Shown here piece by piece: positions 30,001 to 33,000 of a stretch of DNA of 37,934 nt. This DNA comes from a virus (Duplodnaviria > Heunggongvirae > Uroviricota > Caudoviricetes): the IMG/VR virus record IMGVR_UViG_2534682329_000010; one strand, given 5' to 3'. A program made the position numbers. How positions within the stretch are numbered: position 1 is the stretch's first letter; each line of letters begins with the position of its first letter.

Positions 30001-33000
30001 TAACGCAGCTCCACTCTTCCTTTGTTGAGACTGTAAACATTTAATACGGCAGTGGCTGACAATAGCGCCATTCTCAACGAGCACAGTATAGAGGCCATCT
30101 TCACTAAAAATTTCACGTAATTCTTCGATTTTCATCAACAGAATCCTTCCAGATAAATAGCACTCCCCTGTTCGGGGTCCATCCCTCTTCTCCCTGCGCG
30201 CTACTTAAGTATTTTTGATTCTATTCCGGCACCATCCAAAACTTCAAACGCGTTGAAAATAAAAACAAAAACCCGCCGAAGCGGGTTAAGTGTGGGTGCA
30301 TTGAGGATACCTGACACATCAGAGGTGGCGGGAGATTTCTCCCCCGCCAGGTCTCTTACTCCTCAGGTTCGTAAGCTGTGAAGACAGCGACCTCCGTCTG
30401 GCCGGTTCGGATTCGTACCTCGCAGAGGTCTTTCCTCGTTACCAGTGCCGTCACTATGACGGTTAAACAGATGACGATCAGGGCGACTAACATCGCCTTT
30501 TGCTGCTTCATAGCCTGCTTCTCCTTGCCTTTCGGCACGTAAGAGGCTAACCTACATGTGTCTAGCATGAAATTGGCCTCAGATTAATGTTAAGCGTCTT
30601 GCAGGACGCGTAATGTTAACTGGGGCTTTTCTCTATCTGCCTTTTGGTGTTCATGCCTGAGACAGATAGCCTCAAGCACCCGCTGCAATTCTACTTAACT
30701 CTCCTTTTCCCGCAAACCGTTTTTATCCCCAGCGGCAAATCGAATACGCCACCAGTGCTACCGCCATCGCAATTCCTACCGTTGTGAATGCTTCAGGCCA
30801 GGTCATCGTAAAACATCCTCCACGCTTATCAGTCCGTTTCGCTCCAGATAGTCCATCGCTTTATCCGGCAATTTGCAGCCCGGTTTCGCTTTCTTCAGTT
30901 GCCAAGCTAACCGCTTTACCAGCATGGTTAACTCGTCGACCAGACGCTGATATCCCACTGGTTTGTATTCATGCAATTTACCAGCTGGCTCTGCTTCCAA
31001 CGATGCAAGTGCAATTTCATAAGCCCGGCGCTCAATATTGTCTCGAACGTCCAGGCTGCCGATGCGCTCTTTGATTTCTTTAATCATTTCTTTGTCGGTG
31101 AACGTTGTCATGTGTTAGTCCTTGGCCTGTATCTGCTTCTTAACCAGTTTGCGTAGATGTGCCACAGCCATAGAAAGAGTTTCCACCGCTCGTTTATCCA
31201 GCCGTGGGGACAGAGACACCAGTTCGTTTATTGCGATCTCAATGCCCGGTGCCTGCACTGTGGGAACTGGCGGCACACGATACAGCGGAATTACACGACG
31301 CGGGTCTGCGTATTTATCTGGAGGACAAGGTAATAAATAACCTAAACCAATTTGCTCAACATCTCGCAGTTCCTCGTCATCAGTCCATGCAACTGGCTCT
31401 GCTACCAGCGATGCCAGTGCAATTTTGAATAACTCGCCCTCTACCCGTGCCATCCCTGAATTGGGGTGGCATTTCGCAATCGCTATTTTTAATTTGGCTT
31501 CTTCGATTAATTGCTCTTTGGTTAATTCAGTCACTTTTCATTACCGCCCTTTCAGGCGGCCTCCCGATGTTCTGAGGGTGCAGAAATCCCTCCGGTTAAG
31601 GATTAAATTTTATTTACAACACTAAATTTAATTATTCAGGCGCGCGAATCTGTTCTGCACAATGCAACAATGCTTCTGTCACTTCCTTAAGCGTTACGGT
31701 ATCGGCATCATCCAGTCCTGCAACTTTTGCGTGCCTGACAAACGCCGTGCAAAGGTCGTTAAGCGCCCCCGCTCGAACATCAGCCAGGAAAGCGTCAGCA
31801 GCCGGAATTTCAGTAATCCGTCGTTTCATCCGTTCTATTGCATGATTGAATCCGAAGTCTTCAGCAAGAGATACGTCATCCATATTGTCATTGTCAGCAT
31901 CAATATCCCGTAGTTGAGGAATTGCAGACTTTATTCCCGCATTCTCCACCGCCAGTGCCGCAAGATTAGTCTCCAGCTCTGCAATGCGTTTGCTTTGGGC
32001 TTCCCGTTCAGCCAGCAGTGTCAGCACGGTAGCTGGATTGGCTGCAGCGATGAATTCAGCATTGGACTGCTGTTCCATTTGGAAATCTTCATCGAAACCG
32101 CTTTCTGGATGCGCTCCTTCAATTCTGCAAACAGGAATATATCCAGCAACTTCACGATGAATTAGTGCATCATCACCATCAAATCGGCCCTTTCCATATT
32201 CGAGCGACCACTCGCCACACGTTGCTTTTTCTGCCTTAGCACGTAGTGCCTGATAGTCAATCTTGCTCACTCTTCATCCTCCAGGTCGGCAACGGCGTCC
32301 ATCACATCAGAACCGCGAATAACCTCAAAAGCACGGCAGGCCATTTGAAATACCTGTTGCTCTTGCGGATGCGGTGATTCCCAATATTTGAATCCAGGGC
32401 GATGCGCGTACCCCATCATTGAATAAAAATCACCAGCAAGCTTAATCGCGGCATCGACAAGCTCTCTGTTAGTCATTCTTTTTCCGCTCACTGGTTGCCT
32501 CCGCTTCCCACGTTTTCAGACTTTCACCACAGAACGGGCAAAATGAAACTCGAACTGGTAATTTAGAAAATTCACCGGAACGCAACATCACCAAATCAGG
32601 TCCGCGAGTTAAACTCTCATTCCAGATTTTGTATATCAGCAGACCTTTTCGCGTCGTGTATTCAGCATCATGCTCAAGGGATTTTGCCAGTACCGTACAC
32701 GGTTCTATCTTGTTGCCATTAACCTGGCATTTTGATTCACTCACCGCACCACCTCCTGAAATTTCCCCTGATAAAACGCCAGCACGCGCTGCATAACTTC
32801 ACTATTCCTGCACTCGCAACAGATTATGTTCTGTCGTCTGTTGTAACGACGTATTTCTCCGTCTGGTAATGACCAGATAAGGTCAGGATCAACCACAACC
32901 GGTTTCTTCACCTTTGCCCTTGATAGTTTTTTGCGGGCGTTTTGCCAGTCTTTACGCGCCTGCTCGGACGGGAATAATCCGTAGCCTGAATTGTAAACAT

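What the first reader, a model, noticed from the sequence alone, without database searches (positions are those of the whole stretch)
30261..30600. hok-family type I toxin embedded in the nin-like region
The 51-aa product is nearly identical in pattern to HokD/RelF/Gef, with a strong SD, an in-frame upstream extension and structured flanks consistent with mok/sok-type control. A host-killing peptide inside the early operon may stabilise the prophage or act in abortive infection.
Basis: partly seen in the sequence, partly recalled or inferred. Interest (0 to 1): 0.5.

Follow-up and report, generated by a model that had tools for sequence, protein, structure and literature searches.

The report
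Intact prophage hok/mok/sok toxin-antitoxin cassette

Summary
Window 30356-30511 (minus strand) encodes a 51-aa Hok/Gef peptide (Pfam PF01848, 83.6 bits). It is 50/51 identical to E. coli K-12 HokD and 46/51 identical to HokW, the experimentally studied toxin of Stx2 prophage Sp5. The finding's coordinates cover only part of the unit. The full cassette is about 460 bp (30262-30721) and carries every element of the hok/sok model from plasmid R1:
- its own promoter;
- a 420-nt mRNA whose 5' end (tac) pairs with a 3' element (fbi);
- an alternative tac/ucb pairing;
- a mok leader ORF (70 aa, in frame with hok);
- a strong hok SD;
- a 3' protective hairpin and a terminator;
- on the plus strand, a Sok promoter (30525-30553) and a ~77-nt Sok RNA (30560-30636).

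The Sok promoter sequence is identical to the sokW sequence that includes the -10 element mutated in the Sp5 study. Covariation across 21 diverse hok loci supports both mRNA conformations. K-12 hokD has lost its leader to relBE; this copy is intact.

The locus matches 4938 of 5426 complete E. coli genomes and at least 578 IMG/VR contigs, and RefSeq annotates it as hokD.

Verdict: already known. Interest is low.

The parts
30262..30721 (-). whole hok/mok/sok cassette (promoter to end of terminator U-tract)
   Evidence: Across 52 unique related upstream flanks, identity to the window falls to background beyond about -40 from the mRNA start. Identity to hokW is lost just after fbi.
30688..30715 (-). 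hok promoter: -35 TTGCGG (30715-30710), 16-nt spacer, -10 TAGAAT (30693-30688)
   Evidence: The -10 is 88-100% conserved and the TTG of the -35 is 87-96% conserved across 52 unique flanks, while the surrounding sequence is not. It is too weak for the consensus scan. Promoter activity is inferred.
30262..30681 (-). full-length hok mRNA (~420 nt), +1 at G 30681
   Evidence: Rfam RF01794 model position 1 aligns to 30681. The position is 7 nt after the -10. MFE is -172.2 kcal/mol, z = -8.9.
30670..30681 (-). tac (translational activator element), GGGUGCUUGAGG
   Evidence: It pairs with fbi in the full-length fold and with ucb in the truncated fold. Covariation is seen with both partners.
30622..30628 (-). 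ucb / anti-SD, AAGCCCC
   Evidence: Its GCCCC (30622-30626) sequesters the mok SD in the full-length fold, and AAGCCCC pairs with tac in the 3'-truncated fold. The tac/ucb helix is 99.3% paired in 21 loci, with a UA-to-CG compensatory change.
30577..30580 (-). mok Shine-Dalgarno, GAGG
   Evidence: It lies 8 nt before the mok ATG. It is paired to ucb in the full-length fold and to dcb in the truncated fold.
30356..30568 (-). mok ORF (70 aa), in frame with hok and sharing its stop
   Evidence: The arrangement matches annotated K-12 mokC. Close relatives have an out-of-frame 68-aa mok, so what is conserved is translation of the ORF, not the Mok sequence.
30559..30565 (-). loop CUAGACA of the predicted Sok-target hairpin (contains a YUNR-type CUAG); complementary to the Sok 5' end
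   Evidence: Truncated-mRNA fold. The role of the YUNR U-turn rests on my own knowledge of the R1 system and is inferred here.
30543..30547 (-). dcb, GCCUC
   Evidence: It pairs with the mok SD (GAGGC) in the truncated fold. The pairs are near-invariant in 21 loci.
30521..30526 (-). hok Shine-Dalgarno AAGGAG, 9 nt before the ATG; overlaps the Sok -35 on the other strand
   Evidence: Read directly from the sequence.
30356..30511 (-). hok (hokD-type) CDS, 51 aa plus stop
   Evidence: Pfam PF01848 at 83.6 bits. 50/51 identical to K-12 HokD. A 100% identical DNA stretch in NZ_LR882057.1 is annotated as hokD, WP_000813269.1.
30371..30373 (-). Tyr47 codon TAC followed by G (TACG); the A at 30372 is the likely TadA A-to-I editing site (Tyr to Cys)
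   Evidence: The last 35 nt of the CDS are identical to K-12 hokD, whose mRNA is reported ~6% edited at this position (PMC12214031). Among 21 loci, 14 have TACGAA and 7 have a hard-coded Cys codon.
30326..30349 (-). G+C-rich 3'-UTR hairpin (10 bp), the predicted 3' end protector of the processed mRNA
   Evidence: Folds. 80% of cells are paired with 4 double-sided changes (helix 18). The protective role is inferred from R1 data (PMC9841398).
30294..30306 (-). fbi (fold-back inhibition element), CCUCAAUGCACCC
   Evidence: It forms a 12-bp duplex with tac, -21.5 kcal/mol. Compensatory variants appear in hokB-, R1- and Kluyvera-type loci.
30270..30287 (-). intrinsic terminator hairpin followed by a U-tract
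   Evidence: It is absent from hokW of Stx2 phage I, so it is a variable part of the cassette.
30525..30553 (+). Sok promoter: -35 TTGCCT (30525-30530), 17-nt spacer, -10 TAACCT (30548-30553)
   Evidence: The sequence is identical to the sokW promoter region. As I reconstruct it from primers YO-421/422, mutation of the sokW -10 abolished antitoxin activity (PMC8621323). It aligns with the region upstream of annotated K-12 sokC.
30560..30636 (+). Sok antisense RNA (~77 nt): short 5' tail, long hairpin, U-rich 3' end
   Evidence: The ends are placed by alignment to annotated sokC, sokB and sokE. The fold is -30.5 kcal/mol, z = -5.3. It is complementary to the mok start codon and to the leader upstream of it. 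Expression was not tested.

Best explanation
The locus is an intact hok/mok/sok type I toxin-antitoxin cassette of the hokD/hokW prophage clade. It is carried as a self-contained ~460-bp unit in the P-to-Q ('nin') region of a lambdoid prophage.

Mechanism, inferred by homology to plasmid R1 hok/sok and Sp5 hokW-sokW:
1. A weak constitutive promoter makes a stable 420-nt hok mRNA.
2. While the mRNA is being made, a 5' metastable hairpin keeps it closed.
3. When complete, the 5' tac pairs with the 3' fbi, and ucb hides the mok SD. The mRNA is then neither translated nor bound by Sok.
4. Slow 3' trimming removes fbi. tac switches to ucb, and the mok SD moves into a hairpin with dcb that presents the Sok target loop.
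5. In a lysogen, the abundant and unstable Sok RNA, made from the opposite strand, binds there. This blocks mok translation, and hok translation is coupled to it. The duplex is then degraded.
6. If Sok supply stops, processed mRNA is translated. The 51-aa Hok inserts into the inner membrane, collapses the membrane potential and kills the cell.

Most likely role in this context: Hok is produced after prophage induction and assists lysis and phage release, as shown for HokW. Addiction and exclusion effects are possible by-products.

What is shown here: the sequence elements, the predicted alternative folds and the covariation. What is inferred: transcription, processing, toxicity and biological role.
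For: - Peptide: Pfam HOK_GEF 83.6 bits, PHROG 251, 50/51 identity to K-12 HokD and 46/51 to HokW.
- Leader: RF01794 full-length match, 120.7 bits.
- tac/fbi: a 12-bp duplex in the MFE and centroid folds, with whole-mRNA z = -8.9.
- Conformational switch: removing the 3' end switches the prediction to tac/ucb plus SDmok/dcb, and the first 50 nt form a metastable tac hairpin. This is the scheme described for R1 (PMC9841398).
- Covariation on 21 loci: the full-length structure has 76.2% of cells paired against 38-44% for slid controls, and 188 double-sided cells against 94 when shuffled. The truncated 5' structure has 80.4% paired against 36-52%.
- Position 7 of tac (U to C) is compensated in ucb and in fbi (hokB-type).
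- Sok: promoter identical to sokW, ends placed by alignment to annotated sokC, stable hairpin with z = -5.3.
- Intactness: K-12 hokD has no leader hit, and its homology to the window starts only at 30525. By contrast 78 of 80 viral relatives keep tac.
- Role: hokW-sokW experiments (PMC8621323). The window is ~94-95% identical to hokW from the promoter to fbi, and all paper primers tested match the hokW comparator L009.
- Orientation: hok is co-oriented with downstream genes in 70 of 72 viral loci.
Against: - No expression, processing or toxicity data exist for this copy.
- Both promoters are too weak to pass the consensus scan.
[quoted passage not shown] Sequence intactness therefore does not guarantee activity.
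- The structures were derived from the window sequence, which favours it in the slid-partner control.
- The related loci are not independent samples, and those from the genome scan were selected by a pattern that includes dcb and the hok SD.
- The HokW phenotype is modest (about 2-fold in phage yield) and comes from a single study.
Confidence: 0.88

Rival explanations
1. The cassette is a silent relic. It looks intact but is functionally dead, like the chromosomal hok loci of K-12, and merely hitch-hikes in the prophage.
For: K-12 hokA, hokC and hokE are disrupted by IS elements, and hokD lacks its leader. Native chromosomal hokA/B/C loci were reported unable to mediate post-segregational killing (quoted). 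Both promoters deviate from consensus.
Against: No disruption was found here: promoter, tac, ucb, mok, dcb, SD, ORF, fbi, terminator and Sok promoter are all present. The near-identical hokW-sokW locus is active (PMC8621323). HokD peptide is toxic on expression. Compensatory changes show that selection still acts on the RNA structure in this family.
Confidence: 0.07
2. Its main role is to stabilise the prophage through post-segregational killing. Cells that lose or excise the prophage lose the short-lived Sok and are killed by the stable hok mRNA.
For: This is the established function of R1 hok/sok on plasmids. The mRNA architecture that underlies delayed activation is fully conserved here. 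Hok genes are about 4-fold enriched in prophages.
Against: It has not been shown for any prophage hok locus. An integrated prophage is rarely lost, so there is little to stabilise. The chromosomal loci tested did not mediate post-segregational killing. HokW production was tied to induction.
Confidence: 0.2
3. Its main role is abortive infection or exclusion of other phages. Host transcription shut-off by an incoming lytic phage depletes Sok and releases Hok.
For: R1 hok/sok on a high-copy plasmid reduced T4 plating efficiency by 42% and plaque size by about 85% (quoted in PMC8621323). Prophages often carry defence genes.
Against: The effect was weak and was seen only at high copy number. hok is not enriched near defence systems. 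There are no data for the prophage clade.
Confidence: 0.15

Closest known systems
hokW-sokW of Stx2 prophage Sp5 / 933W-type phages (Takada et al. 2021, PMC8621323)
   Same: Both sit in a lambdoid prophage at the same position, upstream of a rem-like gene and Q. The DNA is ~94-95% identical from the hok promoter to fbi. The hok promoter is identical and the leader nearly so, and the Sok promoter is identical. Both have a 70-aa in-frame mok and the same extended Sok hairpin. Hok is 46/51 identical.
   Different: The C-terminal tail differs (TAYEPEE here, VDYESEK in HokW). There are 7 mismatches in the Sok 5' recognition region and mok start. The sequence after fbi differs: the window has a clear intrinsic terminator and hokW does not.
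hokD (relF) of cryptic prophage Qin, E. coli K-12
   Same: The peptide is 50/51 identical. From window 30525 downstream, through hok and into rem, the DNA is 94.4% identical. The synteny hokD-rem-ydfU(DUF968)-Q is the same. The TACG editing context is identical. PGAP names the window's gene hokD.
   Different: In K-12 everything upstream of the hok SD has been replaced by relBE. It therefore has no hok promoter, tac, ucb, mok start or Sok, and no RF01794 hit. The window holds the complete form. Only 2 of 80 viral relatives have the relE-hokD junction.
hokC (gef)/mokC/sokC of E. coli K-12
   Same: The peptide is 42/51 identical. mok is in frame (69 aa). The leader scores 118 bits on RF01794. 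The annotated sokC aligns with the window's Sok region.
   Different: hokC is a chromosomal locus outside prophages. In K-12, IS186 lies about 20 bp downstream of the hokC stop, and no canonical fbi partner was found downstream. sokC is 59 nt and lacks the hairpin extension of about 20 nt.
hok/mok/sok of plasmid R1 (parB), the model type I TA
   Same: The full set of regulatory elements and both predicted mRNA conformations are present: tac/fbi, tac/ucb, SDmok/ucb, SDmok/dcb and the metastable hairpin. Sok overlaps the mok start.
   Different: An R1-type Klebsiella plasmid Hok used as proxy is only 21/51 identical; R1 itself was not fetched. The R1-type mok is out of frame with hok. tac is GGCGCUU rather than GGGUGCUU, with matching fbi changes. 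The setting is a plasmid, where the function is post-segregational killing.

Membership tests
Hok/Gef toxin family (Pfam PF01848) | Peptide of about 50 aa matching the HOK_GEF profile above the gathering score | tested here: met
   83.6 bits against a cut-off of 22, covering profile positions 1-42 of 42. PHROG 251 at E=7e-33.
Hok/Gef toxin family (Pfam PF01848) | N-terminal hydrophobic helix with a conserved Cys, and a conserved L-C-E motif in the periplasmic part | tested here: met
   In the alignment with HokA-E, HokW and an R1-type Hok, C15, T17, L29, E31 and E40 are invariant, and the window has Cys30.
Hok/Gef toxin family (Pfam PF01848) | Toxicity on expression and inner-membrane localisation | not testable with these tools
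   Reported for HokD (K-12, 50/51 identical) and for HokW (PMC8621323).
NCBIfam Hok subfamily NF007279 / HokA equivalog NF007290 | Score above the curated cut-off | tested here: not met
   49.1 bits against 73, and 39.8 bits against 89. These models represent the R1-type and HokA clades. No hokD-specific model matched, so PGAP's hokD name presumably comes from another rule.
hok/sok type I TA locus (hok mRNA family, Rfam RF01794) | hok mRNA 5' leader matching the covariance model | tested here: met
   120.7 bits against a gathering score of 59, model positions 1-157 of 157, on the hok-sense strand.
hok/sok type I TA locus (hok mRNA family, Rfam RF01794) | Long-range tac/fbi pairing between the mRNA 5' end and the 3' UTR | tested here: met
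   A 12-bp duplex in the MFE and centroid folds. 87.8% of cells are paired in 21 loci, with UA/CG and GC/AU compensatory pairs. Distinct co-varying tac/fbi versions occur in the hokB, R1-type and Kluyvera clades.
hok/sok type I TA locus (hok mRNA family, Rfam RF01794) | Alternative tac/ucb and SDmok/dcb pairing after 3' truncation, plus a metastable 5' hairpin | tested here: met
   Predicted for mRNA 1-374, 1-368, 1-360 and 1-50. The tac/ucb helix is 99.3% paired with one compensatory pair. This is prediction plus covariation, not structure probing.
hok/sok type I TA locus (hok mRNA family, Rfam RF01794) | mok leader ORF with its own SD that reads across the hok SD and start | tested here: met
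   A 70-aa ORF from 30568, with GAGG 8 nt upstream. The start position is conserved in relatives even though the frame relative to hok varies.
hok/sok type I TA locus (hok mRNA family, Rfam RF01794) | cis-antisense Sok RNA with its own promoter, overlapping the mok start | tested here: met
   Met at sequence level only. The promoter is identical to the sokW promoter region, including the -10 mutated in the Sp5 study, and the region aligns to annotated sokC/B/E. The hairpin has z = -5.3. Transcription was not tested.
hok/sok type I TA locus (hok mRNA family, Rfam RF01794) | 3' exonucleolytic processing, RNase III cleavage of the Sok/mRNA duplex, and unequal RNA half-lives | not testable with these tools
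   Known for R1. For hokW-sokW there is partial dependence on RNase III and Hfq.
relBEF-type hokD (K-12 Qin arrangement) | hok immediately downstream of relE, with no mok/sok leader | tested here: not met
   The window has the full leader instead. Homology to Qin starts at 30525, and Qin has no RF01794 hit.

The most novel reading that the evidence does not exclude
Hok activation may be wired to prophage induction through transcription. The cassette lies sense-oriented inside the early rightward operon (70 of 72 related viral loci are co-oriented with the downstream genes). After repressor loss, transcription from pR would then run head-on into the weak Sok promoter and shut it off by transcriptional interference. 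This would explain the unexplained RecA-dependent disappearance of SokW. The cassette's own terminator, the best intrinsic-terminator-like site between pR and Q in this window, might also act as a tR2-like checkpoint for Q expression. This is inference only.
Probability: 0.25. Interest if true: 0.4.

Novelty: already known. Interest (0 to 1): 0.1.

Why it matters
It matters little as a discovery. The gene is annotated as hokD in RefSeq and the family is the textbook type I toxin-antitoxin system. A near-identical prophage locus, hokW-sokW, has been characterised, and a recent survey reported that hok is enriched in prophages.

The analysis does have some practical value:
- It gives a base-by-base map of an intact hokD-type cassette. 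The K-12 reference copy is truncated and misleads on what 'hokD' normally looks like.
- It flags that automatic annotation marks only the 156-nt CDS and omits mok, Sok and the regulatory RNA elements.
- It flags that Rfam's 'sok' model hits the sense strand.
- It offers a testable idea for how induction removes Sok.

Tried and rejected
- The profile-based locus search with a 7-protein Hok alignment failed, because no stretch was conserved enough.
- The DNA-pattern scan of genome contigs (GCCTCTTA-N8-16-CAAGGAGAA) returned 120 loci, mostly chance hits in unrelated phyla. A Hok-ORF filter kept 33 pattern matches as real hok loci, all assigned to Enterobacterales apart from one 431-bp contig labelled Xanthomonas. 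Because they were selected by that pattern, they cannot be used to argue conservation of dcb, the hok SD or the Sok -35.
- The consensus promoter scan found neither the hok nor the Sok promoter. Both were placed by homology and conservation instead.
- NCBIfam gave only sub-threshold hits to the R1-type and HokA models.
- K-12 hokC, hokE and a Salmonella IncFIB locus were dropped from the tac/fbi test. An IS element or a group II intron lies just downstream of each hok, and their apparent duplexes looked spurious.
- I considered that the 27-aa ORF upstream (30723-30806) might be part of the cassette. I rejected this because most related cassettes have unrelated upstream sequence.
- I considered a decayed relic like K-12 hokD. 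I rejected it because the full leader is present.
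Full report
**Observation**

The minus strand of window 30356-30511 encodes MKQQKAMLVALIVICLTVIVTALVTRKDLCEVRIRTGQTEVAVFTAYEPEE. An in-frame ATG at 30568 extends it to 70 aa. The 51-aa product matches Pfam HOK_GEF over the whole profile (83.6 bits, cut-off 22). It also matches PHROG 251 'MokW-like host killing' (E=7e-33). It differs from E. coli K-12 HokD at one residue (I9V). It is 46/51 identical to HokW of an Stx2 phage and 42/51 to HokC/Gef.

**RNA level**

Rfam's RF01794 matches 30681-30506 over the full model length at 120.7 bits (gathering score 59). Although that family is called 'sok antitoxin', the match is on the hok-sense strand and ends at the hok AUG. In practice the model describes the hok mRNA leader. 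The same model hits annotated K-12 hokC, hokB and hokE, several phage and plasmid loci, and the hokW locus. It does not hit K-12 hokD.

**Anatomy**

mRNA position p corresponds to window coordinate 30682 - p.

- **hok promoter:** -35 TTGCGG (30715-30710) and -10 TAGAAT (30693-30688). Among 52 distinct upstream flanks of related loci, the -10 and the TTG of the -35 are 87-100% conserved, while everything beyond about -40 drops to background. The cassette therefore starts near 30721 and brings its own promoter.
- **mRNA:** starts at G 30681 and runs to the terminator at 30287-30270, about 420 nt.
- **Fold:** -172.2 kcal/mol against -126.8 ± 5.1 for shuffles, z = -8.9.
- **Full-length conformation:** in both the MFE and centroid structures, the first 12 nt (tac, GGGUGCUUGAGG) pair with CCUCAAUGCACCC at 30306-30294 (fbi), 365 nt downstream. 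GCCCC (30626-30622, within the ucb AAGCCCC at 30628-30622) covers the mok SD GAGG (30580-30577).
- **Truncated conformation:** when the 3' end is removed (mRNA 1-374, 1-368 or 1-360), the predicted fold switches. tac now pairs with ucb. The mok SD pairs with dcb (GCCUC, 30547-30543), forming a hairpin whose loop CUAGACA lies just after the mok AUG.
- **Nascent transcript:** the first 50 nt alone fold into a hairpin that sequesters tac.

This is exactly the sequence of metastable, full-length-inactive and truncated-active states described for R1 hok mRNA (PMC9841398).

**Sok**

I aligned the plus strand to the annotated K-12 sokC, sokB and sokE RNAs. This places the Sok elements as follows:

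- -35 TTGCCT at 30525-30530;
- a 17-nt spacer;
- -10 TAACCT at 30548-30553;
- a start near G 30560;
- a 3' end near 30636.

The predicted RNA is about 77 nt and folds into a long hairpin with a U-rich tail (-30.5 kcal/mol, z = -5.3). Its first nucleotides are complementary to the mok start codon and to the predicted target loop.

The promoter sequence, CTCCTTGCCTTTCGGCACGTAAGAGGCTAACCTACATGTGT, is identical to that of the hokW-sokW locus. I confirmed that the comparator locus L009 is hokW-sokW, because all of the paper's primers and probes that I tested match it exactly. In that study the -10 was mutated; from primers YO-421/422 I reconstruct the change as TAACCT to GAGCCG. This abolished antitoxin activity, and sokW in trans restored it (PMC8621323).

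Compared with sokC, the Sok/leader hairpin carries an extension of about 20 nt (roughly 30594-30616). Eight of the 21 loci compared share it, including hokW.

**Comparative test**

I aligned 21 full-length loci (alignment A2):

- the window;
- hokW;
- two other phage or plasmid hokD-type loci;
- an R1-type Klebsiella plasmid locus;
- 16 chromosomal loci from Escherichia, Kluyvera, Atlantibacter, Siccibacter, Pseudocitrobacter, Klebsiella, Enterobacter, Pseudescherichia and Buttiauxella.

| Measure | Full-length structure | Truncated 5' structure |
|---|---|---|
| Cells forming standard pairs | 76.2% | 80.4% |
| Same, with the 3' partner slid by 1-3 columns | 38-44% | 36-52% |
| Cells with a change on both sides | 188 | 48 |
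| Same, in column shuffles | 94 ± 8 | 21 ± 4 |
| Shuffles reaching the observed value | 0 of 500 | 0 of 500 |

The tac/fbi helix is 87.8% paired, with UA/CG (14:7) and GC/AU (11:4) compensatory pairs. The tac/ucb helix is 99.3% paired. The U-to-C change at tac position 7 in hokB-type loci is matched by A-to-G in ucb and in fbi. That three-way covariation is the classic signature of two mutually exclusive pairings.

Three caveats apply. The structures were derived from the window itself. The sequences are phylogenetically related. The 16 chromosomal loci were retrieved with a pattern covering dcb and the hok SD, so those columns carry no independent weight.

**Relation to K-12 hokD**

The window's homology to the Qin prophage begins at 30525 and continues through hok into the rem-like gene (94.4% identity). 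In K-12 everything upstream, namely the mok start, Sok, ucb, tac and the promoter, is replaced by relBE. The window therefore carries the complete form of the locus, and K-12 carries a truncated one. Among 80 IMG/VR relatives, 78 keep tac and only 2 have the relE-hokD junction.

**Context**

The window is a lambdoid prophage read on the minus strand. In order it carries:

- a cI-type repressor (36280-36687, plus strand);
- a DnaT-like/O and P replication module;
- DUF1627, DUF977 and Ead/Ea22 genes;
- two small ORFs;
- the hok cassette;
- a rem-like ORF;
- a 92-aa ORF;
- DUF968 (ydfU-like);
- RusA;
- Q (27719-28114).

'Nin-like region' is therefore an apt description. The order hokD-rem-DUF968-Q is the same as in Qin.

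**Distribution**

The 461-nt query matches 4938 of 5426 complete E. coli genomes. In 3905 of them the match covers at least 80% of the query, and the median is 2 places per genome. It also matches 102 phage records and at least 578 IMG/VR stretches. A 100% identical stretch in NZ_LR882057.1 is annotated 'hokD: type I toxin-antitoxin system toxin HokD'. Only the CDS is annotated there; mok and Sok are not.

**Function**

The strongest direct evidence comes from hokW-sokW (PMC8621323):

- HokW is toxic, and sokW counteracts it with partial dependence on RNase III and Hfq.
- After mitomycin C, sokW RNA disappears while hokW mRNA persists.
- HokW appears in the inner membrane about 1 h before the endolysin, in a RecA-dependent manner.
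- Deleting the locus halves phage release.

I take this as the most likely role here. Prophage addiction and exclusion of other phages remain possible but are untested for this clade.

One further known layer applies. The Tyr47 codon sits in a TACG context identical to that of K-12 hokD, whose mRNA is edited by TadA at about 6% to encode Cys. Loci in other clades hard-code Cys at this position (PMC12214031).

**An idea not excluded by the evidence**

The cassette is sense-oriented within the early rightward operon (co-oriented with downstream genes in 70 of 72 related viral loci). No strong terminator-like site precedes it on that strand. De-repressed pR transcription would therefore collide with the Sok promoter. 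This could explain the induction-dependent loss of Sok that Takada et al. left open. It is an inference only.

**Verdict**

The element is an already known, very common hok/mok/sok cassette. Interest is low.

Noticed in passing
window 27490-27714 (-): Immediately downstream of Q (27719-28114) lies a 10/12 promoter-like site (27714-27685). It is followed by isrK (RF01394, 27678-27602), which ends in a terminator (27623-27606), then a C4 antisense RNA (RF01695, 27574-27490), then an ORF6N anti-repressor gene (26874-27455). This looks like a pR'/6S-type leader fused to a P1-like c4/ant module.
   Followed up: partly
window 30723-30806 (-): A 27-aa hydrophobic ORF (MTWPEAFTTVGIAMAVALVAYSICRWG) overlaps the stop of the upstream 102-aa ORF by ATGA. 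PGAP does not annotate it in identical DNA. It is kept as an open frame, with conservative amino-acid changes, in about 19 of 87 related loci, including the Sp5-type phage. It is absent from the rest, so it is not part of the hok cassette. It has no Pfam or PHROG match.
   Followed up: partly
window 30270-30287 (-): The hok terminator is the best intrinsic-terminator-like site on the early-operon strand between the pR-like promoter (36258-36229) and Q. That is the position of lambda tR2. hokW of Stx2 phage I lacks this hairpin.
   Followed up: no
window 30506-30681 (-): Rfam RF01794 is named 'sok antitoxin' but matches the hok-sense strand from the mRNA +1 to the hok AUG. The real Sok is on the opposite strand. 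Automated annotation from this model would place Sok on the wrong strand and make it too long.
   Followed up: yes
window ~30594-30616: An imperfect-palindrome extension of about 20 nt lengthens the Sok hairpin and the matching hok-leader hairpin. It is present in 8 of 21 hok loci compared (the prophage hokD/hokW clade, Kluyvera and Pseudocitrobacter). It is absent from the hokC, hokB and R1 types.
   Followed up: partly
window 30371-30373 (-): The Tyr47 codon is in a TACG context identical to K-12 hokD, a reported TadA A-to-I editing site that gives Tyr to Cys. Across 21 loci this codon is either TAC followed by GAA (14 loci) or a hard-coded Cys TGY (7 loci) (PMC12214031).
   Followed up: partly
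window 30512-30568 (-); L012 and L010: mok is in frame with hok here, in hokW and in hokC (69-70 aa). In the close relatives pTA13-2 and Rac-442 it is out of frame (68 aa) because of a 1-nt indel. Only translation of mok appears to be under selection, not its protein sequence.
   Followed up: yes
L205 671-2400 (Dryocola clanedunensis); L112 and L185: Tandem arrays of hok loci were seen. Dryocola has four copies at 561-bp spacing. Escherichia whittamii and Atlantibacter each have pairs about 500 bp apart.
   Followed up: no
L194 (431-bp contig labelled Xanthomonas pisi): This tiny contig carries an E. coli-type hokD sequence. It is probably contamination of that assembly.
   Followed up: no
L014 877-1024 (Salmonella IncFIB plasmid): A group II intron (RF02012) lies 18 bp after an R1-type hok CDS, in the 3' UTR, presumably separating hok from its fbi.
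   Followed up: no
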